Shown here: positions 17,450 through 53,011 of the stretch, piece by piece | How positions within the stretch are numbered: position 1 is the stretch's first letter | How the letters are laid out: the number at the start of each line of letters is the position of its first letter | From: Azolla caroliniana | Lineage: Eukaryota > Plantae > Polypodiophyta | DNA length: 64,000 bases | Direction of reading: 5' to 3' | Assembly: GCA_043228905.1 (NCBI GenBank) | Contig: JBHGNT010000015.1 | Span: 18,104,001-18,168,000 of the forward strand | The notes under the pieces: model-generated | Databases searched by the model: none | What the model was told of the DNA's origin: nothing | Seen by the model: only the letters and a program-made list of their open reading frames with translations | Program-made: the position numbers and the translations under genes

Positions 17450-19248
17450 ATCTGTATTTCCAATGTAGTCGGAATCGGTATAGCCTTCGACTTCGGCTGA
17501 GTTTATCAGTCCGAAAGTTAGTTGTGCATCCGCGGTTCCTTTTAGATACCTAAGGATGTCCTTGATGGCCTCCCAATGCTTCTTTCCTGGGTTTGACATG
17601 TACCGGCTGACCACCCCTACAACATAGGCTAGGTCAGGTCGAGTTGCCACCATTGCTTACATGATACTTCCTACTACCGATGCATAGGGTATCTTTCCAT
17701 TAAGCTCTCCCTCCTTGTCCGTCGAAGGAGAATCTCTGTCCGATAGTCTGATCGACGACGGAAGTGGTGTCAGTGCTGGCTCCGCATTCTCCATGTTGAA
17801 GTGCTTCAACACTTTGTGGATGTAATCGGACTGGGAGAGTCGGAGAGTCCTGGTCATCTGATTTCACTCTATCCTCATGCCCACTATGTGTCGGGCTTGT
17901 CCTAGTTCCTTCATTGCGAATTTTGCATGAAGACTCTGCTTTAGCTTACCGATCTCTGCCTGATTGCTTCCTGCAATCAGCATGTCGTCGACATATAGGA
18001 TCAGATAGATCCTGGACTTGTCGGCCAGTTGCCGAACATACATGCATGGGTCAGAGTCTGATTTGTTGTATCCAAGCTGCCGTATGTAGGAGTCAAACTT
18101 CTGGTACCACATTCTCGGTGCTTGTTTTAGGCCATATAGAATTTTCTTTAGTCAACATACAAGGTGACTATCCTCCCTCGTCGTTGTGAAGCTTGTCGGC
18201 TGAGACATGTATATGTCTTCTTCCAGATCTTCGTGTAGGAACGCCGTCTTTATGTCCATTTGCTCTAGCTCTAGGTCCTCTGTCGCCACAACTCCTAGTA
18301 GGAGTCGGAGGGTGGTCTTCTTGACTATAGGTGAAAATATCTCGTCGTAGTCGACCCCATGTTCTTGTTTGAACCCTTTTGCGACAAGCCGAACTTTATA
18401 CTTGGGTTTCTCTGAATCAGATACATATTTGTATCGGAATACCCACTTGCAAGGTAGCGGCTTTCGTCCAGCTGGTAGTTCGACCAGCTCCCATGTCTGA
18501 TTCTGATGAATCGAGCCCATTTCGGATTTCATGGCTTGTAGCCATGTTTTGGCATCCGGTGCGACCATAGCTTCTTCATACGTGCTTGGTTTGCCTGCAT
18601 CCGTGTAGTTAACGTAGTCGAGGCCCGGTTGATAAACCTCTGTTTGCCTTCGCGCTCGTCCAGATCTCCTGAGTGTCGAAATGTTTGGTTCAAATCCTTC
18701 AATCGGTTCTGTTTGACGATCGGCATTTGATGAACCATATGTGTTAGGAGTCTTGCTAGGTATTCCACCCCCGGTTTGGGATTTTGGCGGTGTTTGGGTG
18801 TTCTTCCCTGTGGGTATCGTCGACTCTTTTCTGACTTGTCTCTTGGTGACTCTGCCTTTGTCAACTCTTGTCAATTCGGCCGTGTCTTTGAAGACTTTGT
18901 CTTTGAGTTCGACGATAGGACTTGTTGCCAATTCAGTGTCGGCAGGGAAGTTGGCGGCTTGTTGGAGTTCGACTATTTGTCGAGTCTCCGATTCGGCCCG
19001 GTTGGTCTGTCCTTCCACGACAATGCTGTCATCTTCAAAGGATACCTTCTTACCCATTGTCTTTTGCTGGTTCCTTTGAGAGAAGATAGAGTCTTCATTG
19101 AAGACCACGTCGTTGCTCCGGATCAATTTCTGGTTCTCAGGGTCCCATAGCCGGTAGCCAAAGTCCCCATCGGTTCCATAACCGAGAAATATGCACTTCG
19201 TTGCATGGGGTGCTAGCTTTGTCCTTTTGTCCTTGGGGATGAACACGT
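17450..19248 (-). pseudogene. Element E RT and integrase C-terminal region
   Basis: KCIFLGY, NQTWELV, RLVAKGF, EQMDIKTAFLH, ILYVDDML, TRPDLAY. Confidence 0.93.
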
Positions 19249-20553
19249 TGTCGCGAAAATACGACGAGGATACGTGAACGTTGAGGCAAGACCCCGGGGC
19301 CTTTGTCTAGAGGATATCAAATTCGTGTATTTATATACTAAGAATTAACCGAAATGAGAAAGATTAACAAATTTCATTAATAAAAGGGAAAGAAAGATTA
19401 CAATCAATCCCAAGATTGGGATTACAAAAGTTTTATCTTATGGAGATGATTAGAATAATAGATTAGAGGAAATAAGAGATTATGATTCTTGAGTGATATG
19501 GCTTTGACAAGGAATTTTGGATTTTGAGAGATTGCTTCCGTATAGAAATTATGGTTTACTTAAGAGATAGCTTCCGTAGGGAAGATTAGGGTTCTTGGCT
19601 TCGATAAGATAAGAGAGCTCCCAAAGAAAAATAAAATAAAATTTATAATATGGAGAGTCTATCCTAGTGTAGGAAAAAAAATGGAATAAATATGGAGTTC
19701 CCCCTTGATCATAGCCTTTCCACTTTTTGTTGCATGGCCTCTACTTTTAGTTGCCTAGCTTTTTCTTTTGGTTGCATGTGACTGTCCACATGACCTTTAC
19801 TTTTTCCATGCACTCCCTTCTTTAGTTGCTTGCGTCCACATGGCCTTTACTTTAGTTTGTTGCATGATCCAATCTTTCGTCCGTCCGCGTCCAACCTCGT
19901 CCGGTAGCCGGTTCCATTTTGCTTGCCGGCCGATTCCGGTTTGCTTGCCGATTCCGATTCCGGTTTTGCTTACCGACCGGTTTCCGATTTGCTTGCCGGT
20001 TCCGATTTTGCTTGCCGGCCGATTCCGGTTTTGCTTACCGGCCGGTTTCCAGTTTTACTTACCAGCCGGTTTGCATACCCGTTCCGATTCTGGTTTTGCT
20101 TGTCGGCCGGTTCCAATTTTGCATACCAGCCAGTTTCCGGATTGCATACCGGCCGGTTTCCGGATTTGCTTACCGGCCGGTTTCCGGATTTGCTTACCGG
20201 ACCCGTTTTCCGGGTTTGCTTACCGGCCGGTTTCCGGTTTTAAGGAATTTGGCCACCATCATCCATCAAGACAAAGTGGCCAAAGTGCTCTTAGCACAAA
20301 TGAAAAATGAGGGAGCTCAAAGTGTTTATATAGCTAGGGCCTTAACTTTCCTATCTATGTGGGATAGTTCTAATTTCCCTATCTAATCAAACTTTATTTT
20401 CTCATAACTTGGTATGTATTTCTCCATTTTGTATATAGTAAAATACATTTTGAAGCTCTTGAGTATATCCATCTTTCTATAGTAAGCTACTAATCTGATC
20501 TATAATAATTATTTCATTATTTTTTTACATAGTGTGTGAAGATTCACACGACA
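19249..20553 (-). mobile_element. Solo LTR (1305 bp) of TGTCG...CGACA Ty3 group
   Basis: TGTCG/CGACA termini, 4-bp TSD ACGT both sides, interrupts E integrase (GCEAY|VFIPKD). Confidence 0.88.
19900..20240. repeat. Degenerate ~23-bp tandem repeat (TTTGCTTACCGGCCGGTTTCCGG) inside solo LTR
   Basis: More than ten visible units. Confidence 0.9.
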
Positions 20554-21618
20554 ACGTAGGCTTCGCATCCAAATATACGGAGCCTATCGTAGGTCAACTA
20601 TTTGCCAGAGCATAGTGCCTGTGGCACTTCGAGCTTGATTGCTCTTGATGGCGCTAGATTTATCAGGTACACTACCGTCTGCAATGCCTCGGCCCAGAAT
20701 TCCAGCTTCAGTCCGGCTTGTTGGAGCATTGCTGTCACCCTCTCCTGGATCGTTCTGTTGATCCGTTTTGCCATCCCATTCTGCATGGGTGTGTATGGCA
20801 CGGTCTTTTGATGCTGGATCCCTTTTTCGGACAAGTACTGCTTGAAGGCTCTTGAGGTGTACTCAACTCCGTTGTCGGATATGAGTGTCTTCACTCTGTG
20901 TCCCAACTGGTTCTCCACTTCAGATATCCATCGAGTGAAGACCTTGAGCACTTCGTCTTTGGACTTGATGGAGTAAGCCCAAATTTTTCGTGTAGAATCA
21001 TCTACGAAAGTGATGAAGTACCGGGAGCCTCCTAGTGATCGCTCTGGCATAAGCCCACATATATTTGTGTGCACGAGCTCTAGGGGCTATTGTACTGTCT
21101 CGTAATGGAGAGAATGTGTATTTAGGGTCTGTTTCCCATATTGACAATGCTCGCAGAAGTCTGTCTTTGCCTGGAGTTTCGGGAGGTAGCCAACCGACAT
21201 CAGTCGATCAAGTCCGGCTTGAGACATATGGCCGAGTCGGCCATGCCATAAGTTTGGGTCGGTCTTTTCGGTTACGTTCACGACCCCTTCAGGGTTGATC
21301 GCCATCAATGGGTACAGATTGTTGTACTTGTACCCACTCCCGATTTTTAGGTTTCCCCGACTGATCACCCATGTCGACTCGTGTAGAGTCGTTCGATACC
21401 CGTCTTCGGCTAACATGCCGATGGAGAACAAACTCCTCTTTAGATCGGGTACGTGCTGAACTCAGTGTAGGGTTATTGTGTTGCTCCCCGGTTCCGGCTA
21501 CTTGGCACTCCTGCCTGTTTCCCAGTCAGACTGTGCCGCTGGCGTCGGTTGAATAGTCCGAAAACCATTCGATGTTGGGGGTCACGTGAAATGTGGCACC
21601 AGAGTCTAGTAGCCACGT
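20554..21618 (-). pseudogene. Element E integrase core, GAG-pre-integrase and protease C-part
   Basis: HTNICG, FVDDSTR, SDNGVEY, PMQNGMA, LWHGRLGH, CEHCQYGK, LLDSGATFH. Confidence 0.92.
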
Positions 21619-22392
21619 TGTCAAGGAAATCCTCGCGGATGCGTAGAAGTTGGGCAAGACCACGGAGGTCTTGAACCAAGGAATAGAGAAGTGAGGAGGA
21701 AGAGTCTGTGGTTTACATGAGCCTTGAGACCGTAGTTTAAACAGAAAAGATTAGCGAAACGAGAGAGAGATAGTGTAAGAGGAACGTGCGTAGACACAAG
21801 CACAGATAAATATGTTAAGAATAACTTGCGTTAGGTGGATAAACTTCTATTAATCAATATATGCGCGTGGCACTGTGGGTGATTACAACTAGATCAGTGC
21901 CGGTGTTTGAGCGTAGGCTCTAAAATAGTCAGGTACAGAGATGAGTGGGCACACAGAAGGTCGATCTCCTGGTCGGGGGAACTCGAGCGTCTGACGCGAG
22001 CAGGGGAAGTGCCTTCCGGTGGCATGTCGTAGGACTCCTCGTCTTCTTTGGTCTCTGTTTCCTTTCTCCTCTCTCTAAAATTCACATCCCCCTTTTAAAA
22101 CAGTTAAGGGTCGCCCCTTTTATAGCACAAGGAGCGACCGTTACAGAGCATTCATGGCCTTGTCGCTTTAACTTCCTAAATTCTCTCCCCCCCCCTTGAT
22201 TCGCTCTCCTCGTAACTCTCCCTACTTACGCGATGTCTGAATCCCTATTAATGCTTTAACTACCTAGTACACCTCCTTTTTCCTATGCCTAGTACTTACA
22301 CTATCTAATTCACTAGGGGCGTGCACTCGTGCACACCAGTGCTCCCGCGCGTTTCACATTGTTTCTACCGATGGCCCGGAATCTTCATGACA
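21619..22392 (-). mobile_element. Solo LTR (774 bp) related to A/B LTRs
   Basis: TGTCA...TGACA, TSD ACGT/ATGT; shares TGTC(A/G)TGAAGA start and TTGGTTCAAGACC U5 motif with B. Confidence 0.85.
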
Positions 22393-22957
22393 ATGTGTGT
22401 GCAACTTGTACACTGTAGAGGACTTCTCCAATCATCGAATCCTCTAGGGAGAGGATTTCTCTGGATCGGGTGTCGGCAACATTGATCTGATTGCCGATTG
22501 GAGAGTGGTCCGAGTCGGAACGTCCCTGATTCCGCTCGGATCGCCGACCACTCTCTTTTCTTTTTATCGACCAACAGTCGGAAATGTTGTGGCCAACTTT
22601 CTTGCAATGTGTGCAGTACTCACTTGTTCGGCCCGTTTTCGAATTCGATCGTTGTCGGTCCCCTCTTGTTTTCGATCGGCTATATCGTCGATCGGTTCTG
22701 TCAGCTTGTTCTTTCGTTCGACTTTGTCGGTCAAACGACTCAGTCGAGTGGTGGGCTTCTACCAACTCATCGATGGTCACTCCCATCGATTTTCTCTTGA
22801 TGTCCTCTGTGAGGACTTGGCCGGTTGTTTCGTCCAAATTTAGGATTGGTCGGCTATTGGCGTATGTCATACAGAATACCTCCCAACTCGTTGGCAAGCT
22901 TGATAGGAGGGCAAGGGCTTTCACTTCTTCTTCGAAGTTGATCCCTTGTAGTTGTGG
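22393..22957 (-). pseudogene. Element E gag C-terminal half
   Basis: EEVKALALLSSLPTSWE, CTHCKKVGHNISDC zinc knuckle; N-terminus missing. Confidence 0.9.
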
Positions 22958-23064
22958 GCCGTATGGCCTAAGCAAGGAGTGCGAGCATATAACCTTCGAC
23001 GGTTGAATAGTTAGGTTAAATAGTATGGTACCTAAAGAATAGTATAAAAGAGAGTAGTAGGGGA

Positions 23065-23157
<93 letters not shown>

Positions 23158-23875: not shown

Positions 23876-26800
23876 GCTTTCGGATGAATGCGTGATTCGA
23901 AGGAGGGAGGTTGTACCATGTACACCTCCTCTTCTAATTCTCCTTGAAGGAAAGCATTCTTGATATCCATCTTGTGGAGGTGCCACCCTTTCGCCGTTGC
24001 GAGTGCAATTACAATCCACACCATCGTCATCTTTGCCACCAGGGCAAAGGTCTCTTCATAGTCGATTCCATGTGTTCGTGCGTATCCTTTCGCTACAAGT
24101 CGAGCTTTGTAGCGGTTGACAGAGCCGTCAGCATTATACTTCACCTTGTAGATCCATATGCAGCCAATTGCCTTCTTGTGCGGTGAGTGGGGAAGAGATC
24201 CCATGTCTCGTTCTTGCGTAGTGCACACATCTCCTTGTTCATTGATTCGATCCATCGCGGGTCCTTCGCGGCTTCGGAAAAGGTTTCCGGCTCCCGAACT
24301 GTTGCTACCTTCATCATAAAGTTGTAATGGTATGCCATATAATCGTTGTAGCCGAATCGGCTTACGGGGTTCTTTTCACGGGTGGATCAGCGGAGCTTCT
24401 CGTTTGCGGATACTAGGGTTTTCTCCGCTCTATTTGTCCGGATCTCAAGGCCTTTGAACTCTCTATCGAGGGAGTGAGTCGATTCGTTGCCGTCGAAGTG
24501 ATTGTCTTCATACTTTGGCATTTTCGCCTTCCCTTTGTCTAGCTTCGGACTCGATCGAGATGTGCTTTGATCGCTCGGAGTCTCTTGTGGTCCATTCAGT
24601 CGGGTCGTGATCGAACTTTCTTCGAACATGCGCGTAAGACGATCTTCATCCTCTATCTCTTGTTCGGCGGATTAAGCGTCGAGCGGAATTGGAGTCGAAG
24701 TTGTCTCTTGTGCGTACCAGGATGCTGACTCATCAAAAACGACGTCTCGACTTATGCGAACTTTTAGAGTCGAGGGGTTGTAGCACTTGTACTCCTTTTG
24801 CTCCAGTGAGTATCCGATGAGGATACATTTCTCCGACTTCGGGTCGAGCTTTTGTCGCTTTTCGTCGGGGATGTGCACATATGCAATGGAGCCGAATATC
24901 CTAACATGCGATAGTTCCGACTTCTTTCTGAAAAACTTCTTGTGCGGCGTGAGTTCATGCACGCCGGATGTTGTACATCGATTCATGAGGTATACGGCCA
25001 TGTTAGCCGCTTCTACCTAGTACGACTTCAACACGTTGTCGTGAAGAAAACCGTCCCTTAGCGCAATCGGTGCATAGCGCGCGTGAACCGGCTCTTCACA
25101 CGTGCGCGCCCTTTAATGTATATAATAGAGAATTAGGTACAAAGGAATATCCTGGGTAGTTAGATTTGGTAGGTAGGAAGTTAATGAGGGAAACGGCTCC
25201 CCTCTTGAAGCTATAAAAGAGAGGGAGACGCGGGGAGACAGGGATTTTTTTTTTTTTGAGAAGAGGACGAAGTGCTGTCGGACCGAAACCGGACGCTTCT
25301 CCTCTGTTCATTCTCCGTCGCCCTTCTCTACAGGTTTTCGGGAGGCTTGCGCTGCTTCGAGGAACGTCCGTGTACTTTCGGCAGCACCTCCATCCTATCC
25401 CCTTTCGTGCGCGGACGAGCAGGCATCAGCATCTGTTCGCCGGCCTGTTCGGTTGTAACCGCTCGCGTGCTCTGTTGTTTATTTGTCATTCATTAATATA
25501 CAAACATTCATGTCTCTCTGTCTCTGTGTCCACTCGTGTCTTCTGCGTTGACAGAGCCGTGTCCCTGTGTTTCTTTGCTCATACGTAACCGAGCGTCTCT
25601 CTCTTTCTCTTTCCCCTTCTATCACCTGCTCTTTGGTTCAAGACCCCGGTGGTCCCGCCTCGTTTCTCCACGCACGCGCATAGTAACGCGACATCTTTAG
25701 TGAACCCGACGTGAACAAGGCGGCAGAGGAGTAGAAGATGAGGAGGTCGGATCTTGCAGAGGCCATGGCTTTGGCCGTGGACCGGATAGTGAGCGCGCGC
25801 GAGGGCACCGGTATTATAGATCTAAGTACTAAAGTAAGCTTAAGATAAGGATAAAGTAATGATAGATAGAAAGGAGAAAGAGAAAGAAGGGTGCCGATCC
25901 ACCCGACCACCCCCGAGCGAAGGGATCGAGACGGACTCGAGCCTCGATCGGCGTCCCATACCACCGCCGTGGCGTCGAGTCGTACCTGGTGCTGGCGCGC
26001 TCGCTACAAGAGTTGACCCACCACACGAGCAGAGTCTCGATGTAGTCAAAAGATGATCAAATGAGGGTAGCTAGGCCTCTTATTTATAGCGATACCCAAG
26101 GCCCCCAGGCAAGTTCACACTTGACCTAATGGGTTGTCTCAATCCCGAGGATTAAAAGTAATCCTCCCCTTCTTTACACTCTCGTTTAACCCTCACACTT
26201 ATCCACGTGTATAGAATACTACGGTAAATTATCACCACGGGATATTATATGGTCATGCCCGTAACATACTCCCCCTCTTTAAAACATTGCACTCTTGCAA
26301 TGGAAAGTTAGGGAAGTTAGTTCTAAGAGTATTTTCGCATTCCCATGTGGCATCTTTTATTGATTTATCCATCCATTTTATTTTAAATTCTCAGATTTCT
26401 TTAGTACATAATTTTTTTGTTTTAACATCGAGAATTCTTTCTGGTTCATGTGGTTTAGAAGACAATTCTTCAGAAGTAACCAGAGTTTCAGTCGTAACTG
26501 TATTGTCGCCAGAACCTAGAAGTTCTTTTAGACGACTCACATGAAAGACTGGATGAATTCTGACACCATCGGGAAGAGCGAGACGATAGTCTGATGACCC
26601 AATGCGTTTGAGGACTGTAAAAGGTCCACAAAACCGTGGGGCTAACATAGCGCACTTACCCGTAGACAATGTCTTAGAATTGTGAGGTACACGTAAAAAT
26701 ACCTTCTATCCAGGGTTGAATACACGAGGTTGCCTATGATGATCGACATAAAAACGCGCTCTATCTTGAGCTGTTTTTATATTATCTCGTGCAATATGCA

Positions 26801-27092
26801 ACATATCTTGCATATCTCGAAGAAAGTTTTGCGTACTTCGCAACGCATCATGATATATATTAACATCAATCGGGGCTCGTGGCTGAAAACCATACATCAA
26901 CATAAAAGGACTATATCCCGTCGACGTATGCTTGGAGCTGTTATAAGCAAACTCCAAAAATGGGAGATAACGTTCCCATTTTGTTGGTTTTGCACCAACG
27001 TATGCTCGAAGCATGTCCTCAATAATTTGATTTACTCATTCTGTCTGTCCATCGGATTGAGGATGATCCGTGGAGCTCATGCTCATGCTCAA

Positions 27093-27902
27093 CTTTCGGC
27101 TCCGGATCGTTGCGTGAGTCGGGTGGGAACCACCGAGGTCTTGGACTAGGAGAAAGAAGTTCGTGAGATAGAGATTAATTATGAGTAAATAGCAAAGAGA
27201 AAGATAAGAAACTCGTGAATCACACGAGTATACTATATTAATTGGTTCTTAGGGTGTTAAGAGAGAAGTAGATGTATAAATCGTGAATCCCACGAATAAT
27301 TTTTGTATTGATTAATACTTAATCCAAATAATCAACAACCCTTTATATATTTCTCTCCTCCTTATATAAGGAAGGAAGAGCTAAGCATGGCTTCATGCTT
27401 TTTTTTTTACAAAAAGTGTTCATGTCCACTAAATGTGCATGTGATGCTTTTTTTTATTTCCTAACGCTAGATGTGCATGAGTTATTTTTAGTGTCTCGTG
27501 TTTTTTCTTTTTCATATATTAAAAAAATACACGATTTACCTTTTAATAAAGGTATGCATAAATAAAGGTCTTATACGTATTAAATCTATATTTAAAACAC
27601 TTAAGATAAGTTAATGTAATGGTAAGGTTGGGGTTTGTCAACGTGGAGGTGCAGGGTTCGAATCACGCCTTGCGCAGTAGTGAGTATTTCCTTTTTTTTT
27701 TACATTTATGTCTCTTTATCCGGCTCTTCCTTGCCGGTATGCCGTTTTCTTCCTTGCCGGTATGCCGTTTTCCTCCTTGCCGGTATGCCGTTTTCCTCCT
27801 TTCCGGTATGCCGTTTTCTTCCGGTTCTCACCGAGCACTCCATTCTCTATCCGGAGGGACAAAAATATAATTTCCACATAGTGTGCAACCTACACTACGA
27901 CA
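27093..27902 (-). mobile_element. Solo LTR of the G family inserted in C integrase
   Basis: 27093-27157 is the reverse complement of G U5; ends CACTACGACA followed by ACGT; left terminus and TSD damaged; internal ~23-bp repeats 27720-27825. Confidence 0.88.
27605..27701 (+). promoter_or_regulatory. tRNA-like A box/B box cassette with oligo-T, antisense in LTR U3
   Basis: TAATGTAATGGT 27612, GGTTCGAATC 27655, T10 at 27692-27701. Confidence 0.6.
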
Positions 27903-28362
27903 ACGTAGTTTCTAACTTCTTAAAGACTTGTGTCTAGAAGTCACTAGTAAACTTTGGATCTCGATCACTCACGATATCCATCGGTAACCCATAAAAACGA
28001 AACAATTCGTCCACGAATTGGTAAGCCAATTCAGGAGTTGTTACCGTGGTTTTAGTAGCAATAAATCTGGCCATTTTAGTTAGTCGATCAACGACAACCC
28101 AGATGGCATCATGACCTTTTTGGGTGCGAGGAAGGCTAACAATAAAATCCATGGATATACTTTCCCACTTATTATTGGGAATGTCCAAGGGATGTAAAAG
28201 TCCTGCGGCTTTAAGTCGGTCGGCTTTGTTAACCTGACACTGGTGACATTTAGTCACATAGCTATGTATGTCAGGACGCATCTTAGGCCAATAAAATTGA
28301 GTGGAGATGAGAACGAGTGTACGATGTATTCTAGGGTGCCCTGCTGAGGGTGCATCATGGCA

Positions 28363-31300: not shown

Positions 31301-31500
31301 CTATTAGTCTCACGTTGTAGACTAATGACACGTGCCTCAAGAGCACTCTGAGATTGCCGAAGTTCGGTCATCTGTTGAGCGGTGAAACTAAGGTATTGGG
31401 TTATTTGTGCCAAATACATCTCAGTGGACATTTGTCCAGGAGGATTCCCTTGAGTTCCTTCCGCTTGAGCGGATGACATGGGGTCGTTAATTTGAGCCAT
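28363..31500 (-). CDS. Element C Gag-PR-RT-RNase H polyprotein (1045 aa, frameshifted before integrase)
   Basis: [60 protein letters not shown]. Confidence 0.93.
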
Positions 31501-41389: not shown

Positions 41390-43516
41390 ATGAGGGGGTC
41401 GGATCTTGCAGAGGCCATGGCTTCGGCCGTGGATCGGATTGTAAACGCGCGCGAGGGCACCGGTGCCCTCGACAGAGCTATTGAGGCGGTCGTCGGCACG
41501 ATCGGCCGGTTCGATGGGAAGGATGCCACGAAGTATTTGGCGTCCTACGGTGCAGAGATGCTGATGCGGGACATTCCGGAAGAAAGGCGTCTTGGCGGAT
41601 TTCCCCGAGTGGCGATGCCGAGCATCCATGCGGAGGTGCTCGAGGTGCGGGCGGAGAGCCGTACCTGGGAGGAGTTCGAAGGGCGGCTCCTAGAGAAATA
41701 CGGGCTGGACGACGCGCTCCGGCTTTCAAAGCGAAGGTTCATGGAATGGGTGGAGTCCCCGGGGAAAGGAAGAAACGCGACGGCACTCCTCCGGGAGTTC
41801 GAGGAAAACTTTGCGCGCCTTTCGGCGCTCGACCGAACCATCCTGGACACGAGCCGGGTCTTGCTGTTTGTCAAGTCGGTCGACGAGCGGGATCGGGAGC
41901 ACGTGGGCCTCTTGCTGGAAACCGAAGACGGGCTCACTATCGACTGGGCGGCTGTCAAGAAAGTCTGTGGCCGTTTCGACAAACGGCGAGAATGGGCGGA
42001 TAACGGGGCAGCCGGGTCGGGCTCGGTCGCAGCAAGGAAGCTCGAACCAGCGCCACAGGTGCGAAAGGAAGAGACCCGAGAGTGGTTGGAAACTGGTTCG
42101 GCTTCGACCGGCGTAGTCAGAGGCTCGACCGGAGGAGCGGCGCTGGAGGAATTGACGAGGGCGATAAAGGACCTCCAAATCGCGCAAGCCCGAAGGGAAG
42201 GTGGCGAACCGGCTCGTGACCGACGGCCGGCGGCAGGAAACAAGTGCATGTGGTGCGATGAAGTCGGCCACATTCGGAAGGACTGCGGCGACTTCGCGGA
42301 GGCGCTGAGGAACAGGGTGGTGTACCTGTGGGAAGGACGGGTGCATGCCAGCGACACCCGAAGGGCCCTGAGCCGAAACGACGGGCGAGGTGGTATGAAA
42401 AGGTTGATGGAAGAGGCGGCGGCCCGACACGCGGAAACCGTCCACTACTCGGCGTCGGCCGGCATTCGAGTCGGGGGCGGCGAGGCCCGAAGGGAAAGCA
42501 AAACCGGATTCTGGCCGACGATGCTGGAAGGCCTTGCCGGTGCAAGGCTTAAAAGGGAGGAATCGGACCGTGCGGAGAAACGGGTACGGGAGATGACCGG
42601 GTGGAGCGACCCTGTCGAGGAAAAGACGGGCTTCGTGGAAGCCGCTTGCCAGAACCACGAGGCCCTGGTAGAAGAGAAGCGGGTGGGGAAACCCGGGACG
42701 ACCGGGCCCTCACAACGATACGAGACCCGGTCCGGGCCACGACGGGACGAAGCCGGCGGGGCCGGTACGCAAGATAAACCCCAGAAGGGCGGGTACCGTC
42801 TGGGGACGGAGATAGAAAGGACCACGGACTTACGAAAGGTCCTGGAGGAGCGGATCCTCGACAGTAAGGTGGAGTTGTCGTTACGAGAGGTGCTGGGAAT
42901 CGCCAAGAAGGAGTTCCACGACTCCATCGTGGACTTGGTGAAACGGAAGAGGCTGTCAACGGAGACAGAACCGGAAAGACCGGTGGAAGTGCGGACGACG
43001 CACCTAGACGACATGGCGCTGGGAGACGAGTGGGCGGAAAGCCACTATTCGAGACCACACTGGGCCCGAGCGACCACGGAAACCCCGGTGAAGATCGGCG
43101 ATGTCCAGGAACCGGTGATAGCTTTGGTGGACCATGGATCGGAGATCAATTTGATGTCCATGGACTTCTATAAGAAGGGCAAATGGCCGGTCAACACCAA
43201 GCACGGGTGGAAAATAAGGGCAGCAACGCGCGCCACCGAGGAACTGCACGGGGCCTGTCCGAATGTGCGAGTCAAGATCGGCGACGTCGAGATTGACCAG
43301 CACTTCTTCGTGCAGGAGACGTCTTCGCATCCGGTCATACTGGGAGAGCCGTACATCACGGCGGCGCGAATGGAGACCAAGGTGCTGGACAATGGTTCGG
43401 CCTACGCGAGGGTCAAAAGCCAAGACGGGCGCCATTCGGTCCAGTTTCTGACGGTACGGCCGAACCACGAACGTAACCGCGATTCCCTCGGTTCCGAAAC
43501 CCGAGAGGATTTTTAG
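41390..43516 (+). CDS. gag: Element A Gag-protease ORF
   Basis: Open frame with capsid-like N-terminus, CX2CX4HX4C knuckle and aspartyl protease LVDHGSEIN; first ATG 41390. Confidence 0.93.
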   Translation: MRGSDLAEAMASAVDRIVNAREGTGALDRAIEAVVGTIGRFDGKDATKYLASYGAEMLMRDIPEERRLGGFPRVAMPSIHAEVLEVRAESRTWEEFEGRLLEKYGLDDALRLSKRRFMEWVESPGKGRNATALLREFEENFARLSALDRTILDTSRVLLFVKSVDERDREHVGLLLETEDGLTIDWAAVKKVCGRFDKRREWADNGAAGSGSVAARKLEPAPQVRKEETREWLETGSASTGVVRGSTGGAALEELTRAIKDLQIAQARREGGEPARDRRPAAGNKCMWCDEVGHIRKDCGDFAEALRNRVVYLWEGRVHASDTRRALSRNDGRGGMKRLMEEAAARHAETVHYSASAGIRVGGGEARRESKTGFWPTMLEGLAGARLKREESDRAEKRVREMTGWSDPVEEKTGFVEAACQNHEALVEEKRVGKPGTTGPSQRYETRSGPRRDEAGGAGTQDKPQKGGYRLGTEIERTTDLRKVLEERILDSKVELSLREVLGIAKKEFHDSIVDLVKRKRLSTETEPERPVEVRTTHLDDMALGDEWAESHYSRPHWARATTETPVKIGDVQEPVIALVDHGSEINLMSMDFYKKGKWPVNTKHGWKIRAATRATEELHGACPNVRVKIGDVEIDQHFFVQETSSHPVILGEPYITAARMETKVLDNGSAYARVKSQDGRHSVQFLTVRPNHERNRDSLGSETREDF

Positions 43517-43572
43517 AGAGGACTGCCAAGGCGTGGGGCCGCGACAGTCCGGATGCTCGGGAAAAACCCCAC
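43507..43572 (+). promoter_or_regulatory. Putative -1 ribosomal frameshift signal (G GAT TTT plus stem/pseudoknot)
   Basis: Slippery heptamer directly before the ORF1 stop; pol is in the -1 frame and open across it; GGACTG/CAGTCC stem 6 nt downstream; heptamer conserved in B at 35153. Confidence 0.75.
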
Positions 43573-46500
43573 ATCTGTACGATAAAACCGTGTACAATAG
43601 GTAGGAAATTTTGCTTCTCCGACAGCGGAGCATGTACGATGGTCGGCATCACCGGCCGAGAGAAAACAAAGACGGAGGGGAGACTTCGGGCGTGCGGTGT
43701 TCTCGGCCCTGACGAAGAAATCAACGGAGCCGTGGAGGTAGTCTCCTTCGACGACACCTTGGGAATGCTGGGGAGGGTAGTCGAAGAAGACCTTATCGAG
43801 GACCGGACGATACCGGTATGTTCCGAAGAAATGTACGAAGTCATCGCGGACTTCGGTCGAGGGCTCGAGTCGGGACGGACGGCCCGAGTTAGCACCAAGT
43901 ACAAGACTGTGGACCGGAAGGTGAGGCCAGTTGCGGCGCCCCTACCTGAGGGCAGCGAATCCCGAATTAAAGGGGTTGCATCGGACCCCAGCTTACGGGA
44001 TCCGGCCTGCATAGGACACACCTTCACCAACGAGACGCTCCGCGAGCTGAAGATCGGTGGGGGCGGGTTCCTACTACCGGTGGAGGAAGACCGGTTTCGG
44101 AGGATGCTCGGAAGGCACGGAAAAGCCTTCACATTCTCACCGGAGGAAATCGGGTGCGTAGACCCGACGATCGTAGAGTCGATGGTGATATTCACGGTAC
44201 CGCATGTACCGTGGAATCTCAAGCCAATTCCGGTTCCGAGAGCTCACATCCCGAAGTTGATGGAGCTGTTGAAGCAGAAAGTTGATATGGGCATTCTCGA
44301 GCCGTCGAGCGCCCCGTACTCGAACCGGTGGTTTACCGTACCAAAGAAAAACGGATCATTGCGCTTCATTCAGGACCTGCAACCGGTCAATAGGGTGACC
44401 ATTCGGAACGCAGGGATCGGACCGACCATAGATGAGTTCGCGGAGGCCTTCACCGGAAGGTCGATTTACTCGGTCGGTGATCTATATTCAGGGTACGACC
44501 AGTTCCAGCTAGCCGTGGAGAGCAGAGACATTACGACGATGCGAACTCCCCTCGGCCTAGTGCGGATGTGTACGCTGCCGCAAGGAGGGACCAACTCGGT
44601 GGCCCACATGGTGAATGCAATGAACAAGGTGCTGAGGGACTGCATCCCGGACATCACCATGCCGTTTCTAGACGACATCCCGATCAAGGGATGCCCGGTA
44701 GAAGAGAAGGACGAGACGATCGGGCCGGACGGATGCCGGCGATTCGTGGTAACGCACATCGACGACTGCGAGAAGGTGCTGCGAAGGCTAGAGGATGCGA
44801 GGCTCACCTTCTTGGGGGAGAAGTCAGCCTTCGGGCAGTCGGAAATCATGGTGGTCGGACATTTATGTGGACCATATGGCCGGAGACCGTCTCCGGCAAA
44901 GATAGAAGCCATCTCCGCGATGAAGCCTGATTGCAGCTCGGTCACGGAAGTACGAAGATTCTTGGGGGCATGCGCCTTCTACCACATATGGATCCCGCAT
45001 TACGCGCACGTCGCGGAGCCGCTGTACGGATTATTGAAGAAAGGGCGAAGATTCGAATGGCTAGACAAGCACACGGAGTCGGTCCGGAAGCTGAAGGAGG
45101 CTCTTTCGGCAGCACCGGCGCTCCGAAAGGCCGTCTACAGGAAGGGCACCCCAGTGTACATAACGGTTGACACGAGTCCGACCGGAATCGGGTGGGTCGT
45201 CAACCAAGAAGATGAGGACGGCAATCGGTTTCCGATCCGATTCGGTGCGAAGGTCCTCAGCGAACGGCAGCGAGGATACGCCCAGGTTAAACGCGAACTC
45301 TGGGGTATCGTTTCGGCGGTGAAGGCCGACAAGGACTATCTGATCGGGACGGAGGTAATCATAGAGACGGATTGCATGCCGATTCTCGGCATGGTTTCCG
45401 GATGCGCGACGCCGGACCTGGCAATGCTCAGGTGGATAGCGTACATCAAGTCCCTAGACCCGGTAATACGACACATTTCCGGGAAAGACAACGCCATGGC
45501 CGACATGCTTTCAAGGGCGAGATTCGATGACGAGGGCGGCATGATTTCGGAGGACGAAGAGGTCGGCGTGGACTTCTTCGAGACTGCGTATGTAACAACC
45601 GACGGGACAAGCACTCCGGCACTTAACGACTTTGACGCGAGCAAGTACGACGGGGAGTGGCTGCAGATCGGTGGGTTTTTGAAGACAATGACGCCCGATG
45701 CGTCATGGACGAAGGACGAGGCCAACCGGATCCGGAAGAAAGCGTACCGGTTCTTTCTCCGGGATGGCTATCTATGGAAGCACCCGAAGAAGAGGGACGG
45801 CGCTCCGCTCCGGGTAGTGGCGATGAAGGAAGAACAGGAGGAGCTGCTGACGGCTTACCACGACAGCCGTTGGGCTGGACACCGTGGAACATGGGCTACG
45901 TTTGAGAAACTGAAAGGGAAGTATTGGTGGCCGGGGCAGTACCGGGACGTGCATCGGTTCGTGACAACTTGCGAGAGCTGTCAGATGCACTCCATAGTCC
46001 GACATCGGGACGAGCTTCACCCCACGTACCCTCCGACCATCCACTTCAAATGGATGGTAGATCTGGTGACGATGCCAATGGGGGTAGGACAGATGCGGTA
46101 CCTGGTCCTAGCGCGGGAGGATCTGACGAACCAGGTGGAAGGCCGGGCCCTTCCGAACAAAACGACCGCGGCCGTATGCCGGTTCCTAATCGAGGACGTG
46201 ATATGCCGGTACGGGTGCGTCGGGAAGATCGTGGCTGACCGAGGGGAGTTGGACGCCGAAGAAGCCGCGGAGCTGTTCGGCCGGCTGGGAGTCAAGCTCT
46301 CGCTCACCACTGCGTACAATCCGGAGGCGAATGGAAAGGTGGAGCGCGGACACGGACCGATCGTCAAGGCGTTGGTTCGGGCATGCGGAGGCCGAGTCGG
46401 TGACTGGCCGCGGCTGCTACCTTATGCTCTGTGGGCAGACCGGACCACGCACAGTTCGGTAACCGGGTACATGCCGACGGAGCTCATGTTCGGCCAGAAG

Positions 46501-46995
46501 CCGATCATGCCGATAGAACGGGCTATCTCCTCGTGGGCAACGGTCGACTAGAGGGACGAGATGAGCCGGGAGGAGTTGTTGGCCGCGCGCATACGACAGC
46601 TCGAGCGGAGACCGGAGGACGTGGAACTGGCTGCGGAGAAGCTCCGGGTGGCGAGGAAAAAGAACAAAGCCAGGTTCGACCGAACGCACCGGCTCCGACC
46701 GAAGAAAATCGAAGAAGGTGACTGGGTGCTCGTCTACGACAGCAGCCTCGACAACCAGCACCGAGCTACACGGAAGTTCGCACGAAGGTGGTTCGGGCCT
46801 TACGTGGTACGGAGCGCCAATGACAACGGGACATATCACCTGGCGGAACTCGACGGCACGAGAATGGCGATACCGGTTGCAGGGAAGCGGATCAAGGCGT
46901 TCAAGAAGCGACACGACGACGAGCCAGACCCGGCTCTCCTGGTCAGCAGTGACGAACGATCCGAAAACGAGGAAGAACCGACGGGCGAGGAATGA
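43513..46995 (+). CDS. pol: Element A Pol (RT-RNase H-integrase), one premature stop at 46549-46551
   Basis: DLYSGY, LPQG, FLDD, DTSP/ETDC RNase H, HHCC zinc finger, DRGE and GKVER integrase core, WFGPY; TGG in B is TAG here. Confidence 0.93.
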
Positions 46996-48476
46996 AGACG
47001 GGCCAGTTTTCTCCGTCCCAACTTTCTTGGCGCACACCGGAGGATGCGCGGTTAGGTGGGGGCGGATGTCGTGAAGAAAACCGTCCATAAGCGGAATCGG
47101 CAGACCAAGGCGTGGGAACCGGTTCCTCACGCGCGCACGCTCCAAGTCGAACATAGAAGCGAGTTAGGAGGATATTCGGCAGGAACGGGCCCTAACACGA
47201 GTGGAGACAAAGACCGCGCGAACAGTCTTTTCGGTCGCGCGCGCGAGCTAAGGGACGGCACGAGTCGGCGACGTAACTACGCGTATGCGTGAAGAACGGA
47301 GCGGATCCCTGTTCGAAAGGGACAGGGGATAAAGCTGACATGACGGCCTGCTCGTCGAGATATATAAGGAACAGGAAAGAGCTGTAAAAAGGGATATATC
47401 GCGCGGAGAGGACGAAGTGCTGTCGGACCGTTTCTGGACGCTTCTCTCTCTCTGTTTCCTTCCTTCTTGAGCTCCATAGATTTCTGTGCAGGGTTCCGAG
47501 GAGGCTCGCGCTGTTTCGAGGAACGCCCGAGTGCTTCCGGCAGCACCTCCAACCTGCTAACCCCCTTGCCCTGTTTTGTGCGTCGAAGCGAGCAGGCATC
47601 GGCATCTGTTCGCCGGCCTGTTCGGTTGTAACCAACCTGTGCCCCATCGAGGGTTGTAGTCGTGCTAGCCATTTTTCTTAATATACATATTTAGTCATTC
47701 GCATCTGTCTGTGCCGGTGTCTGTTCGCGTTCTCCGTGCTGAAGGGCCGTGTCCCTGTGTATCCCCGGTCCTGCGTAGCCGGTTCTCCCTCTTTCTCCTC
47801 CCTCGCTTGCTCTTTGGTTCGAGGCCCCCGCGGTCCCGCCTCGTTTCCACACGCACTTGCGTAATATCTCGATAACGTCTTCCGGACAGGAGGCACTAGT
47901 AGAAGTAGAGGCCGGCATAGAATTCACTCTATGTCTCATTACGAATAATCCACCGTAGTCGTCATACTCGGAGTCGGCGGCGTAATTGGTGAGTTGTCGG
48001 CTAGTGGAAACCAACTCGTGTATCTTCTTACAACATTCTTCTTCGTGGTGACCGATTTTTCCGCAATATCTGCATTCGACCGAGTTTTGTTGGCTCGGAC
48101 TGGAATGGTGGCTCCCCCTTCTTTCAAAGGTTCCTCGATGGCCTCCATCTTGTTGCCATAATTGAGAGTTGTTTTCGTAAGTCGGGCCTCGTCCTCCTCG
48201 TCCTTGGCCGAATCGGCCTCTTCTTGCACGACCGCGTCCTCTTCCTCCGTCTGAATGTGTGTAGAGCATGTGGCCTTCCGAGGCGTTGCTCCTTGTTCGA
48301 ACATGATTCTCTTTGACCAACAACATGGATTGAAGATCGAAGGAGGGTGGATTCTCCCGTGCTAGTACGGCGGTCCGCATTGCGCCGAACCGTTGTCGTA
48401 GTGTATTTTGTACACTACGTGAAAAACGTATATAGTATTAGATTCAATAAAAAATGAAGAAATAGAAGAAAATAGC

Positions 48477-48563
48477 AAAATAAATGGAACATGCATAGGG
48501 CAAGATTCGAACCTTGCACCTCCATGTTAATAATGTAATGTCTTACCATTACACTAGCATTTC
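48477..48563 (-). promoter_or_regulatory. tRNA-like A box/B box cassette in G 5' LTR
   Basis: Minus strand TAGTGTAATGGTAAGACAT...GCAAGGTTCGAATCTTGC; D-like and T-like stems; T4 then T6 downstream. Confidence 0.65.
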
Positions 48564-49186
48564 ATTAGTGTTAAAGCATAGATGTCCCACATAGAAAGGT
48601 AAATTCACGCTAGGATAAACATTAGAAAAACGCATAACAAAAGAAAAAGCTACACATACACATCTAGCGTGCATGATAAAAAACGCACAAGTTAGAAAAA
48701 AGCATGATCACTTTAGATAAATCATATAGTCTATCTATAGGAAAAGCATGGGGTCTATAGTTAGAGAAAAAGCATGGATTACTAAGACTTCCTCATCACT
48801 ACATAAGGATGGGAAGCACAATGTAATTATGTGTGAAATATTTGGAAATTGGATATATTTCCGAAAACACCAACCGATTAATATAATCGTGGGATTCACG
48901 AAAATAATATAATCTATACTTGTGGGATTCACAAGTTTCTTATATCTTTCTTTCAATCTAAATACATATTCTTATCTAAATATTGATTAATCGAATACAA
49001 TACACTCGTGGGATTCACGAAATTTCTATCTCTCTTTCTAATAATCTATTTATTACTAGCCTCATCTCATATTCTTCTTTCTCCTAGTCCAAAACCTCGG
49101 CGGTTCCCACCCGACTCACGCAACGATCCGGAGCCGAAAGGCACGACACAGTTAGTGAACCCGACGTGAAGGCGGGTGGCAAGGAG

Positions 49187-51217
49187 ATGGAGAATCAACA
49201 AGAGGCGATGAACATGATGATGATAATGTTTGAGCGGATGCAACAAGAACAACGTGTGATGTCGGAGATGAAGGCGGCAGTAGAGCGGCTTCTGCGACGA
49301 AACGGGGAATTCAACGGTAAGGGTGTGTCACGCTACCTACGTGAATATAAGGCGGAGATGATGCAATATCGGATACCGGAAGGATTGCAAGTGATATCCT
49401 TTAGTCGGGTGGCCTCGGACGAACTACAAGAGAGAATCCACAAGATACAACAACAAAACTCGACATGGGAGTCCTTTGAAGAAGCTTTACGGGAGGCATA
49501 TGACTATGAGAGATGGACGGGACGAGATCGACGAGAATTCGACGAATGGGTGGCGTCGGAGAAGACTCACCGAAGTGCAACGCAAGCGTTCCTAGAGTTC
49601 GAGCATCGTTTTGCTCGACTCTCGGAGCGGGAACGAAGATTGGTGGGAGAAGATAAAGTCTTAATGTTCGTAAGATCGATCGATCGGAAAGAAAGGATGG
49701 ACATTGGGATCGAACTCGAAGATGATGACGGTGCGAATGGCCTTACCGAGGATTGGGCTAAAGTCGAAAGGGTATGCCGAAGACATGATGAAAGGAAGCT
49801 GAGAATCTCGTCAACAACGACATGGCCCATGAAGGATGGTCGATTGAGGAAAAACGATGAAGCCAATATGAAGGCCGAAATACAACATGATGGTACCACG
49901 GGAGAAAGAGTGGAACAAGACACCCACTCGTCTTGTGAAAGAACGATGGTGAAGGATAAGGCCGATAATTCAAGTGTAGAAGGAAATTTCGGGATACAAG
50001 TGCCCGAGACATCGGGTCAAAAAGGGGTAAGCATAATAGATGTTTGCATAATTGATGCAGATAAAGAGTGTGAAGCGGATGTGATTAAGGAGGTAGCCAC
50101 AAAAGACGAAATCGAATCGGAGGTGGCTATGGACGAATCAATGGCGGATTGCCATATCGAGACTTCCCCACCACTGATTCCAGAGACTCCGGCGGTTGCG
50201 ATCGAAAGGCAACGTGAGACCGAAGAGACGGAAGGTGGCGGAGAGAAAACGAATGTCGAAGCCGACGAATACGATGAAGAGATAGCCGAGAAGAATGCTA
50301 AGGGTGAAACTACGAAAGAAGGTAATACCGAGGATTCATGCCAACAATATCTAGAGACTTCGGCGGTTGTGTCCGAGAACCAACGTGAGACCGGAGAGAC
50401 GGGAGATGGCGGCGAGGAAGGTAAAGTCGGATGTCGGTTCGGATGGAAAATGATCCATCCGAAATTCCAATCTAAAAGAAAGTGCGACAATGCGGAGGTC
50501 GGGTCTACGACGGGAGAAGCGCGTAATACAGAGCACGCTCTACGGCGAATAAAGAAACGCGTGTTATGGCGAATAAAGAAGCACGCGCTACGGCGAGAAA
50601 AGAAGCATGCATTACAACCACACGAGGACCGAACAACGAGCACATATCGGAGGACCTACGTGGCGAACAACGGAAAGAAGTGCCGAAAGTCGAACCGGAC
50701 AAGGCAGGTGAAAACGAAGAAAAGAAAGCAAATCCGGACGAAAAGAAAAGAAAAGAAACCGACCCGAAAGAGCACTGAATCGGTAAAAACCGATCAACCG
50801 AGTCCGGATCGACCGAATACAAATCGGAAAGGAAGCCGAACTAAACGAAAGACGATCCGACGAGACCGAATCGGAAGTAAGCTAATCCGACTAAGCCGAA
50901 AATCCGAAAAGAAGTCGAGATTGATGAAGAAAAGAAAGAGGGCAAGAAAAGATACTACCGCGGATGACAAGGACCAAGCGGGCCATGCAAAAAGCGAACG
51001 AAGACTATGGTGGATCGGATGTCGACAATGGTTCGGGTGGAAAGAATGGATGTGCTCCAAATGGAGAGACAAAGTCAACATAACAAGAGAAGTCGAGGGT
51101 ACTACGAGCCGGCAACGAAACCAATCGGGTAGAGACCGGACGGAGGAGACTAACAAACACCAACAACTTCGGCACATACCGGAGGATGTGCGGGTTTGGA
51201 GGGGGCGAGTGTCGTAG
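49187..51217 (+). CDS. Gag-like protein with acidic middle and K/R-rich C-terminus (~676 aa)
   Basis: Uninterrupted ORF; N-terminus aligns with A Gag (FNGKGVSRYL vs FDGKDATKYL; VLMFVRSID vs VLLFVKSVD; GLTEDW vs GLTIDW). Confidence 0.85.
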   Translation: MENQQEAMNMMMIMFERMQQEQRVMSEMKAAVERLLRRNGEFNGKGVSRYLREYKAEMMQYRIPEGLQVISFSRVASDELQERIHKIQQQNSTWESFEEALREAYDYERWTGRDRREFDEWVASEKTHRSATQAFLEFEHRFARLSERERRLVGEDKVLMFVRSIDRKERMDIGIELEDDDGANGLTEDWAKVERVCRRHDERKLRISSTTTWPMKDGRLRKNDEANMKAEIQHDGTTGERVEQDTHSSCERTMVKDKADNSSVEGNFGIQVPETSGQKGVSIIDVCIIDADKECEADVIKEVATKDEIESEVAMDESMADCHIETSPPLIPETPAVAIERQRETEETEGGGEKTNVEADEYDEEIAEKNAKGETTKEGNTEDSCQQYLETSAVVSENQRETGETGDGGEEGKVGCRFGWKMIHPKFQSKRKCDNAEVGSTTGEARNTEHALRRIKKRVLWRIKKHALRREKKHALQPHEDRTTSTYRRTYVANNGKKCRKSNRTRQVKTKKRKQIRTKRKEKKPTRKSTESVKTDQPSPDRPNTNRKGSRTKRKTIRRDRIGSKLIRLSRKSEKKSRLMKKRKRARKDTTADDKDQAGHAKSERRLWWIGCRQWFGWKEWMCSKWRDKVNITREVEGTTSRQRNQSGRDRTEETNKHQQLRHIPEDVRVWRGRVS

Positions 51218-51292
51218 TGTATTTTGTACACTACGTGAAAAACGTATATAGTATTAGATTCAATAAAAAATGAAGAAATAGAAGAAAATAGC

Positions 51293-51379
51293 AAAATAAA
51301 TGGAACATGCATAGGGCAAGATTCGAACCTTGCACCTCCATGTTAATAATGTAATGTCTTACCATTACACTAGCATTTC
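51293..51379 (-). promoter_or_regulatory. tRNA-like cassette in G 3' LTR
   Basis: Identical copy of 48477-48563. Confidence 0.65.
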
Positions 51380-53011
51380 ATTAGTGTTAAAGCATAGATG
51401 TCCCACATAGAAAGGTAAATTCACGCTAGGATAAACATTAGAAAAACGCATAACAAAAGAAAAAGCTACACATACACATCTAGCGTGCATGATAAAAAAC
51501 GCACAAGTTAGAAAAAAGCATGATCACTTTAGATAAATCATATAGTCTATCTATAGGAAAAGCATGGGGTCTATAGTTAGAGAAAAAGCATGGATTACTA
51601 AGACTTCCTCATCACTACATAAGGATGGGAAGCACAATGTAATTATGTGTGAAATATTTGGAAATTGGATATATTTCCGAAAACACCAACCGATTAATAT
51701 AATCGTGGGATTCATGAAAATAATATAATCTATACTTGTGGGATTCACAAGTTTCTTATATCTTTCTTTCAATCTAAATACATATTCTTATCTAAATATT
51801 GATTAATCGAATACAATACACTCGTGGGATTCACGAAATTTCTATCTCTCTTTCTAATAATCTATTTATTACTAGCCTCATCTCATATTCTTCTTTCTCC
51901 TAGTCCAAAACCTCGGCGGTTCCCACCCGACTCACGCAACGATCCGGAGCCGAAAGGCACGACACCGTGGTGCAAGGCTCCTGAGGCATATTTACACCAT
52001 TTCGTCATCCTCCACATTGACGCTTATCAAGCCCAGGGCATCACAAAGCTCCTTGGCCTTCAAGGTGTAGCTTGTAATGGACATATCCCGTTGTTAGATG
52101 TCGTTCAACTCTTGGCAGAGTTGAAGCTTTCTCGCGGTCGTGTTGGCGGCGAAAATCTTTCGAAGATTCTCCCACGCTTCCTTCGGCGTCTTGGCTTCTA
52201 GAATGTAGCCGAGCATGTGGTCGTGAACACATGTCGCCAAGCAATACATCACTCGGCTTGGCGCTTGCTCCCAAGTTGCATAGTCAGTGTCTTTCGGGTC
52301 AGGTCGGTTTGGTGCATCTTGTACTCCCAAGATGCAAAGTTGTTGTGATCCAACTTCTCGCTAGGGAGAGCGCTCCCCATTTGAGTATTCATTGTCGATT
52401 AAGCTTCCTTTCTTCTTTTCCTTCTCTCTCGAACACGAGCTATGTAGTGGTACTACGATAGCGATGAGCCGGTTCTTCTTGAACGTTGGCGTAGAGCACA
52501 ACACACAATCACGAAGAGGCGAGTGGGCTAGATCGAGCTACTAAATCGCTCTGATACCATGTAAAGAATCGATGGTTATTCTTGTGTAGTGGAAGAGATG
52601 TGTGCTATATGTATGTGTGAGAGGAATTAGAGGAGAGATGAGAGAACACAAGATAAATAGAAAAAGGAATACTCAAGAAGAAGGTGTATATTTCATAAGT
52701 AGAATAAGAATTACAAAATGTAGCATAATAAGGAGTCACAACCGACTTAGTATGAAGTATGAGGAGGGTGCTTTATTTTGAGTCACCCTCTCTCTTCATT
52801 AACTTTACAACAACCACTCTCTCTCTTGGGGAATGTGAAGACTCATAGTCATGGGGAATATGTAACTCATTAGTTATGTGTCATAGAATATGATTCTATG
52901 ACACATAGTTAATGTGTAGAGAGTAGTGGTGTGACTCTTGACCTTTGAGTAATCATAGATTCTTAAAAGGTGTATTCACACATTGTGCTATGTTGAGCTT
53001 GATTCTCAACA

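What the first reader, a model, noticed from the sequence alone, without database searches (positions are those of the whole stretch)
19245..51968. A tRNA-Trp-primed Ty3 group inserts at CpG-centred 4-bp targets (ACGT)
Seen: six independent insertions of this group have targets ACGT/ACGT (19245, 20554), ACGT/ATGT (21615, 22393), ACGT/ACGT (25033, 39388), ACGT (27903, left side damaged), ACGT/ACGT (40534, 47875) and CCGT/CCGT (48390, 51965). Copia and chromovirus insertions here have unrelated 5-bp TSDs (GGAAG, ACCGG, ATTAT, TAAGC). Established: most plant LTR elements make 5-bp TSDs with weak preference. Inference: a sequence-selective, chromodomain-free integrase, possibly reading methylated CpG and so steering itself into older transposons. 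ACGT is also the bZIP/G-box core, so such insertions could disrupt regulatory sites.
Basis: partly seen in the sequence, partly recalled or inferred. Interest (0 to 1): 0.82.

Follow-up and report, generated by a model that had tools for sequence, protein, structure and literature searches.

The report
Plant retrotransposon inserting at CG sites
A family of plant jumping genes inserts almost only into four-base sites with CG in the middle, most often ACGT; this is real but likely the same habit already published for the moss Phygy family, and the idea that it senses DNA methylation remains untested.

Summary
Six related Ty3/gypsy insertions (two long elements, one gag-only element, two solo LTRs, one damaged LTR) sit at 4-bp targets with a central CG; empty paralogous sites hold one copy of the 4-mer. 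Outside the window, 78 of 85 distinct insertion junctions, found by LTR sequence alone, have NCGN (27-fold over local background) and 36 of 85 have ACGT, with a symmetric spectrum (A>C>G>T)-CG-(T>G>C>A) and almost no signal outside the four bases. It is not new in kind: REXdb (PMC6317226) lists the Phygy lineage as 4-bp TSD, NCGN, tRNA-Trp primer, no extra domain. These elements match those traits; placement in the Phygy tree could not be tested because no reference sequence was reachable. Additions here: the ACGT-weighted palindromic spectrum, relatives in Riccia liverworts and ferns, use of the same targets by a gag-only element, and a conserved short ADRGEL loop in the integrase. The likely mechanism is a two-fold symmetric intasome that bends its target at a central pyrimidine-purine step, as foamy virus does, plus base reading that narrows it to CG. 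Methyl-CpG sensing and G-box disruption are unsupported.

The parts
19245..20557 (-). D: solo LTR 19249-20553 (1305 bp) with ACGT/ACGT target duplication, inside a copia integrase region
21615..22396 (-). E: solo LTR 21619-22392 (774 bp) with ACGT/ATGT duplication (one copy changed C to T), inside a copia gag-pol region
25033..39391 (+). A: Phygy-like element 25037-39387, LTRs 25037-25693 and 38732-39387 (25 substitutions), primer site near 25698, broken gag-pol, ACGT/ACGT duplication; about 6.5 kb without the nested chromovirus
25807..33645 (-). G: chromovirus nested in A, LTRs 25812-26266 and 33186-33640, 5-bp ACCGG duplication, chromodomain remnant; control element
27093..27906 (-). F: LTR related to C, inside the integrase of G; ACGT at 27903-27906, U5 end damaged
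40534..47878 (+). B: Phygy-like element 40538-47874 (7337 bp), LTRs 808 bp with 3 substitutions, ACGT/ACGT duplication
41350..41367 (+). Primer-binding site of B, complement of the CCA-ended small RNA miR894 (tRNA-Trp 3' end, label recalled)
41390..43516 (+). B gag-protease ORF (DUF4100 E 7e-7; weak aspartyl protease match)
43477..46995 (+). B pol: RT, RNase H, integrase (H2C2, core with ADRGEL loop), stop codon after the core, then SH3-like tail and acidic end; no chromodomain, no separate archaeal RNase H
48390..51968 (+). C: gag-only non-autonomous element 48394-51964 (3571 bp), LTRs 755 bp with 1 substitution, primer site near 49153, CCGT/CCGT duplication

Best explanation
These are Ty3/gypsy retrotransposons, likely of the Phygy lineage, that insert at four-base targets centred on CG, most often ACGT, likely because their integrase bends the target at its central step and reads the C and G bases, without needing methylation. 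Shown: the 4-bp duplication, the CG centre, the two-fold symmetric spectrum confined to the duplicated bases, the lack of a chromodomain, and use of the same targets by a gag-only element. Inferred: two integrase active sites cut four bases apart on sharply bent DNA (as in foamy virus), which favours a flexible pyrimidine-purine centre and disfavours T first and A last; lineage-specific base contacts narrow that centre from any YR step to CG; non-autonomous copies are moved in trans by the same enzyme; TG/CA centres are mostly later deamination.
For: 78 of 85 distinct left junctions NCGN versus 3.3% background; 36 of 85 ACGT versus 0.22%; ACGT is 46% of NCGN sites versus 6.6% expected. First base A54 C20 G10 T1, last base T57 G13 C11 A4, symmetric (P=0.33 for a difference) and independent (P=0.61); 73 of 85 fit VCGB, the CG case of the foamy-virus consensus VYRB with T/A disfavoured at the edges (PMC4422553 passages). 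Right junctions 22 of 25 NCGN. In two sequencing runs, 24 and 29 contigs match through ACGT and then turn to unrelated flanks (agreement 0.38-0.39). Predicted integrase model matches foamy virus and Ty3 integrases best. Phygy in REXdb: 186 elements, 4 bp 100% (NCGN), tRNA-Trp 81%, no extra domain.
Against: No Physcomitrium-named protein appeared among the rows listed in three protein searches (120 of 215, 19 of 19, 120 of 187), so tree placement in Phygy is untested; B (7337 bp) is just under the moss size range (7656-9968). Only 3 of 10 contigs holding both ends of one LTR show identical 4-mers (L016, L043, L050); 3 differ by one base and 4 by more, probably collapsed short-read assembly, not checked. 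119 of the 120 loci come from one series of assemblies, so probably one host. No residue that reads CG was identified. Methylation independence is not shown.
Confidence: 0.7

Rival explanations
1. The integrase prefers or needs methylated CpG at the centre of the target, which would steer a chromodomain-free element into already silenced DNA.
For: C methylation created strong target preferences for avian retroviral integration in vitro (review passage, PMC11054761; the primary paper was not held). CpG is methylated in this host: 22 of 25 LTR differences in A are transitions, 11 at CpG. All six window targets lie in other retrotransposons, and 18 of 84 outside flanks match transposons of this window.
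Against: The window is nearly all transposon and no genome baseline exists. Flank CpG observed/expected is flat at 0.69-0.80 from 0 to 3000 bases. Fly errantiviruses show strict 4-bp palindromic targets in a genome with little CpG methylation (recalled).
Confidence: 0.17
2. A host protein that binds ACGT (bZIP or bHLH type) or another tether brings the integration complex to these sites.
For: ACGT is the favoured 4-mer; tethering is known for other LTR elements (passage in PMC5408687).
Against: Signal is confined to the four duplicated bases; outside them only a weak C excess at the adjacent base (31 of 85), no G-box selection. A bound factor would cover, not expose, the cut site (inference).
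Confidence: 0.06
3. A separate lineage that converged on the same TSD and primer as Phygy.
For: Tree placement untested; TatI also has 4 bp and tRNA-Trp; size slightly below the moss range.
Against: No separate archaeal RNase H, which TatI has in 100%; NCGN is the one motif that REXdb gives to Phygy alone; nearest named relatives are from liverworts and ferns.
Confidence: 0.12
4. Artefact: mis-set LTR ends (ACGT as part of the terminal inverted repeat) or chance.
For: ACGT is palindromic, so ACGT-TGTCG...CGACA-ACGT also reads as an inverted repeat.
Against: 3' LTRs start at the same TGTCG after the purine tract without ACGT (29 of 120 loci); 5' LTRs end before the primer site without it; CCGT/CCGT is direct; empty sites hold one copy; 20 different 4-mers occur.
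Confidence: 0.01

Closest known systems
Phygy lineage, non-chromovirus Ty3/gypsy of Physcomitrium patens (REXdb, PMC6317226)
   Same: 4-bp TSD with NCGN, tRNA-Trp-type primer, no chromodomain, no archaeal RNase H, no extra ORF, coding region filling the interior (versus 7, 22, 40, 74).
   Different: The paper calls Phygy species-specific and gives only NCGN; here the spectrum is weighted to ACGT and CCGT/ACGG, B is slightly shorter, and relatives occur in Riccia, Ceratopteris and Adiantum proteins. Phygy is also named in a liverwort genome (PMC12885004 passages).
TatI and Selgy (REXdb)
   Same: 4-bp TSD; TatI also uses tRNA-Trp.
   Different: TatI carries an archaeal RNase H, absent here; Selgy uses tRNA-Ala and is about 5 kb; no target motif is given for either.
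Prototype foamy virus intasome
   Same: 4-bp stagger, consensus VYRB, central YR step, T first and A last disfavoured; best structural match of the predicted integrase.
   Different: Weak preference for any YR step; here 92% CG. The loop at foamy-virus Ala188 aligns one residue shorter and is followed by a near-invariant Glu.
Drosophila errantiviruses (gypsy, ZAM, Idefix groups)
   Same: Strong palindromic 4-bp targets TATA, CGCG, ATAT.
   Different: Different lineage and motifs; none of the three listed has CG as the central step.

Membership tests
Ty3/gypsy | Domain order gag-protease-RT-RNase H-integrase between LTRs | tested here: met
   (elements A and B)
Phygy | Groups with Phygy references in RT-RH-INT trees (the formal criterion) | not testable with these tools
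   REXdb sequence files too large to read; no Physcomitrium-named protein in the listed rows
Phygy | 4-bp TSD | tested here: met
Phygy | NCGN target motif | tested here: met
   6 of 6 in the window; 78 of 85 and 22 of 25 outside
Phygy | tRNA-Trp primer-binding site | tested here: inconclusive
   Same site in A, B, C, complement of CCA-ended miR894; the Trp identity is recalled, no tRNA set was searched
Phygy | No chromodomain | tested here: met
   No Chromo match at E up to 1 in the A and B tails or in 9 relatives; the nested chromovirus does match
Phygy | No archaeal RNase H, no extra ORF, polyprotein fills the interior | tested here: met
Phygy | Size 7.7-10.0 kb (descriptive; the paper calls size insignificant for classification) | tested here: inconclusive
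   B 7337 bp; A about 6.5 kb without its nested element
TatI | Archaeal RNase H domain | tested here: not met
   Only weak RVT_3 matches lying on the ordinary RNase H in 2 of 9 relatives, none in A or B
Chromovirus | Chromodomain; RT close to chromoviruses | tested here: not met
   No chromodomain; RT-RH 26% identical to the nested chromovirus
Helenus (tRNA-promoter TRIM), for C and F | Non-coding element under about 1 kb with tRNA-derived LTR segment | tested here: not met
   C is 3571 bp and encodes gag; the A/B-box-like segment is not called by ARAGORN or Rfam; definition from PMC10886601

The most novel reading that the evidence does not exclude
The Phygy-type integrase reads symmetric 5-methyl-CpG at the centre of its cut site, so a chromodomain-free plant retrotransposon finds silenced DNA by sensing DNA methylation directly.
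Probability: 0.15. Interest if true: 0.8.

Novelty: new member of a known kind. Interest (0 to 1): 0.3.

Why it matters
REXdb names Phygy as the one exception to unselective target choice among plant LTR elements, and my searches found no follow-up on its mechanism. A 92% CG-centred spectrum is far stricter than retroviral preferences, so the lineage is a ready model for how an LTR integrase reads bases, and a clean place to test whether methylation guides insertion. The 4-bp NCGN signature also helps annotate solo LTRs and gag-only copies in non-seed plant genomes. The finding itself is a confirmation and refinement, not a new system.

Tried and rejected
No whole genome is held, so no genome-wide logo or baseline. 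No relative in viral contigs (6 pattern matches, none confirmed). The first contig overlay showed very high copy depth but its cut loose-end table held no target rows; only 12 of 42 loose-end rows were shown, so rows for partial matches (xCGT, xxGT) were not seen, and run X1 may be the window's own sample. Empty-site alignment failed for A, D, E. Rows dropped before the count of 85: 29 purine-tract (3' LTR) junctions and 6 duplicates of 120; L047 was kept although it is probably a chance match (its continuation, like those of L020, L071, L076, does not hit the A/B LTR; 4 of 69 tested). Weak CG-1 domain matches in the spacer before the integrase (E 0.21 in B, 0.02 in A) are below the cut-off and absent in 9 of 9 relatives: rejected as chance. 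The protein atlas gave no useful taxa; cluster look-ups gave no plant names beyond Riccia. GingerRoot (6-bp TSD), the Tuber paper and the Ylt1 passages gave no CG-centred target. PMC7466625 passages do not name Phygy or targets; PMC6911290 confirms 4 bp for Phygy and Phygy nested in Tcn1. No earlier finding of this scan matched. The TAAGC control TSD was not found. REXdb supplements 1 and 3 (element table and sequences) could not be read and may hold the moss 4-mer spectrum, which could already be ACGT-weighted.
Full report
Observation. The window is a nest of LTR retrotransposons. Six insertions share LTR ends TGTC(G/A)...(C/T)GA(C/T)A and a conserved U5 motif: solo LTRs D (19249-20553) and E (21619-22392), element A (25037-39387, with a chromovirus nested in it), damaged LTR F (to 27902), element B (40538-47874) and element C (48394-51964). 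Only a 4-base duplication fits. Empty sites for B (a local tandem duplicate, one ACGT) and C (a paralogous copia, one CCGT) confirm it; the test failed to align for A, D and E. On window frequencies, 6 of 6 NCGN has P=2e-8. Control elements have 5-base duplications (ACCGG, GGAAG, ATTAT confirmed; TAAGC not located).

Anatomy. A and B encode gag (DUF4100 match in B), protease, RT, RNase H and integrase in Ty3 order, with an SH3-like tail and an acidic end; no chromodomain and no separate archaeal RNase H, while the nested chromovirus does match Chromo. Both are broken: A by stops and frame changes and at a catalytic position of the integrase, B by a stop after the integrase core. C encodes only a gag-like ORF (36% identical to B gag over 194 residues), so it must be moved in trans (inference). 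A, B and C share one primer site, complementary to the CCA-ended small RNA miR894 (PMC5846777 passages); that this is the tRNA-Trp 3' end is recalled. LTR pairs differ by 25 (A), 3 (B) and 1 (C) substitutions, so B and C are young. Named relatives of pol are from Riccia sorocarpa (64%), Riccia fluitans, Adiantum nelumboides and Ceratopteris richardii (52-55%, partial); unnamed ones reach 82-86%. The host is likely a non-seed land plant; it was not identified.

Test outside the window. No genome is held. Of 120, 29 follow the purine tract (3' LTRs) and 6 are duplicates, leaving 85 junctions. Central CG: 78 of 85 (background 3.3%, 27-fold, P=3e-106). ACGT: 36 of 85 (background 0.22%). Strand-folded counts against expectation among NCGN: ACGT 36 vs 5.1, CCGT/ACGG 20 vs 7.8, ACGC/GCGT 11 vs 5.9, ACGA/TCGT 1 vs 13.8, TCGA 0 vs 10.4. 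First and last bases mirror each other and vary independently; 73 of 85 fit VCGB. Outside the four bases there is only a weak C excess at the next base (31 of 85). Of the 7 non-CG centres, 4 are TG or CA and one (L047) is probably a chance match. Right-hand junctions give 22 of 25 NCGN, 9 ACGT. Against: of 10 contigs holding both ends of one LTR only 3 have identical 4-mers, likely because short-read assembly joins flanks of different copies; this was not checked. Independent of that set, contigs of runs X1 and X3 laid on B's left junction match through ACGT and then diverge in 24 and 29 (plus 12 one base further) contigs with unrelated flanks, against 19 and 11 stopping at the LTR start with a purine-tract majority; summed depth steps from 2170 to 53654 (X1) at the ACGT boundary; 12 of 42 rows were shown.

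What is known. Neumann et al. 2019 (PMC6317226; passages and supplements 5 and 4 read) state that Phygy elements have an insertion preference for NCGN, the exception among plant LTR elements; their table gives 186 elements, 4 bp 100% (NCGN), 7656-9968 bp, tRNA-Trp 81%, no extra domain. Every trait that I could test matches, size aside; the formal criterion, a tree with Phygy references, could not be run. I put membership at about 0.85. A search for Phygy, retrotransposon and NCGN listed 20 papers, and only this one holds both Phygy and NCGN; fern genome with Phygy gave none.

Mechanism. Retroviral integrases with a 4-bp stagger bend the target at a central YR step; foamy virus has consensus VYRB and T first/A last are disfavoured (PMC4422553 passages). 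The spectrum here is that pattern with YR fixed as CG, and its symmetry fits a two-fold complex (inference). The predicted B integrase (mean pLDDT 79) matches foamy virus and Ty3 integrases best. The motif after the second catalytic Asp, ADRGEL, is nearly invariant in 57 aligned sequences (A57, D56, R53, G54, E56, L57) and aligns one residue shorter than the foamy-virus loop that carries Ala188 (my reading). Since that residue sets preferences outside the duplication, a glycine there would fit the flat flanks; the CG-reading residues are unidentified. Methyl-CpG reading has a precedent in vitro (review passage) and the host methylates CpG, but no result here points to it: flank CpG content is flat at 0.69-0.80, the 6 of 6 nesting is uninformative in this window, and strict palindromic targets occur in fly elements (PMC5408687 passages). 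G-box disruption is not supported: 13 of 36 ACGT sites have a preceding C.

Verdict. Real, robust and mostly known: a new host and a sharper target spectrum for a Phygy-like lineage. Interest 0.3; the methyl-reading case stays open at about 0.15.

Noticed in passing
window 48490-48560 (C LTR, minus strand) and 27610-27675 (F LTR, plus strand); similar piece near 1030-1110 and in the flank of L111: tRNA-like A-box/B-box segment lying antisense to the LTR in the C/F family; not called by ARAGORN or Rfam. Possibly a SINE head captured in the LTR.
   Followed up: partly
window 41341-41345 and 47870-47874; also L006, L009, L035, L038: Both LTRs of B end in CGATA instead of CGACA, and four outside loci do too, so the integrase tolerated a non-CA end at least once.
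   Followed up: partly
window 43477-43516: gag and pol of B overlap in the -1 frame around a G-GAT-TTT run, a candidate frameshift site (motif type recalled).
   Followed up: no
window 48394-51964: Young gag-only element (LTRs differ by 1 base) with high summed contig depth at its LTR end; a non-autonomous partner family.
   Followed up: partly
window 41350-41367: The primer site is the exact complement of miR894, an abundant conserved plant small RNA mapped to gypsy elements in a conifer; a possible tRNA-fragment silencing link.
   Followed up: partly
window 40301-40537: A tandem duplication of about 190 bp in the host copia keeps an empty copy of B's target next to the filled one.
   Followed up: yes
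window 17760-53251: An outer minus-strand copia (GGAAG duplication) hosts at least four layers of nested insertions (copia, A, chromovirus G, F).
   Followed up: partly
window 19900-20245: Degenerate tandem repeats rich in CCGG inside solo LTR D; shorter repeats in F near 27720-27820.
   Followed up: no
window 25812-25820 and 33186-33194: The chromovirus LTRs end in TA rather than CA at their U5 end in both copies.
   Followed up: no
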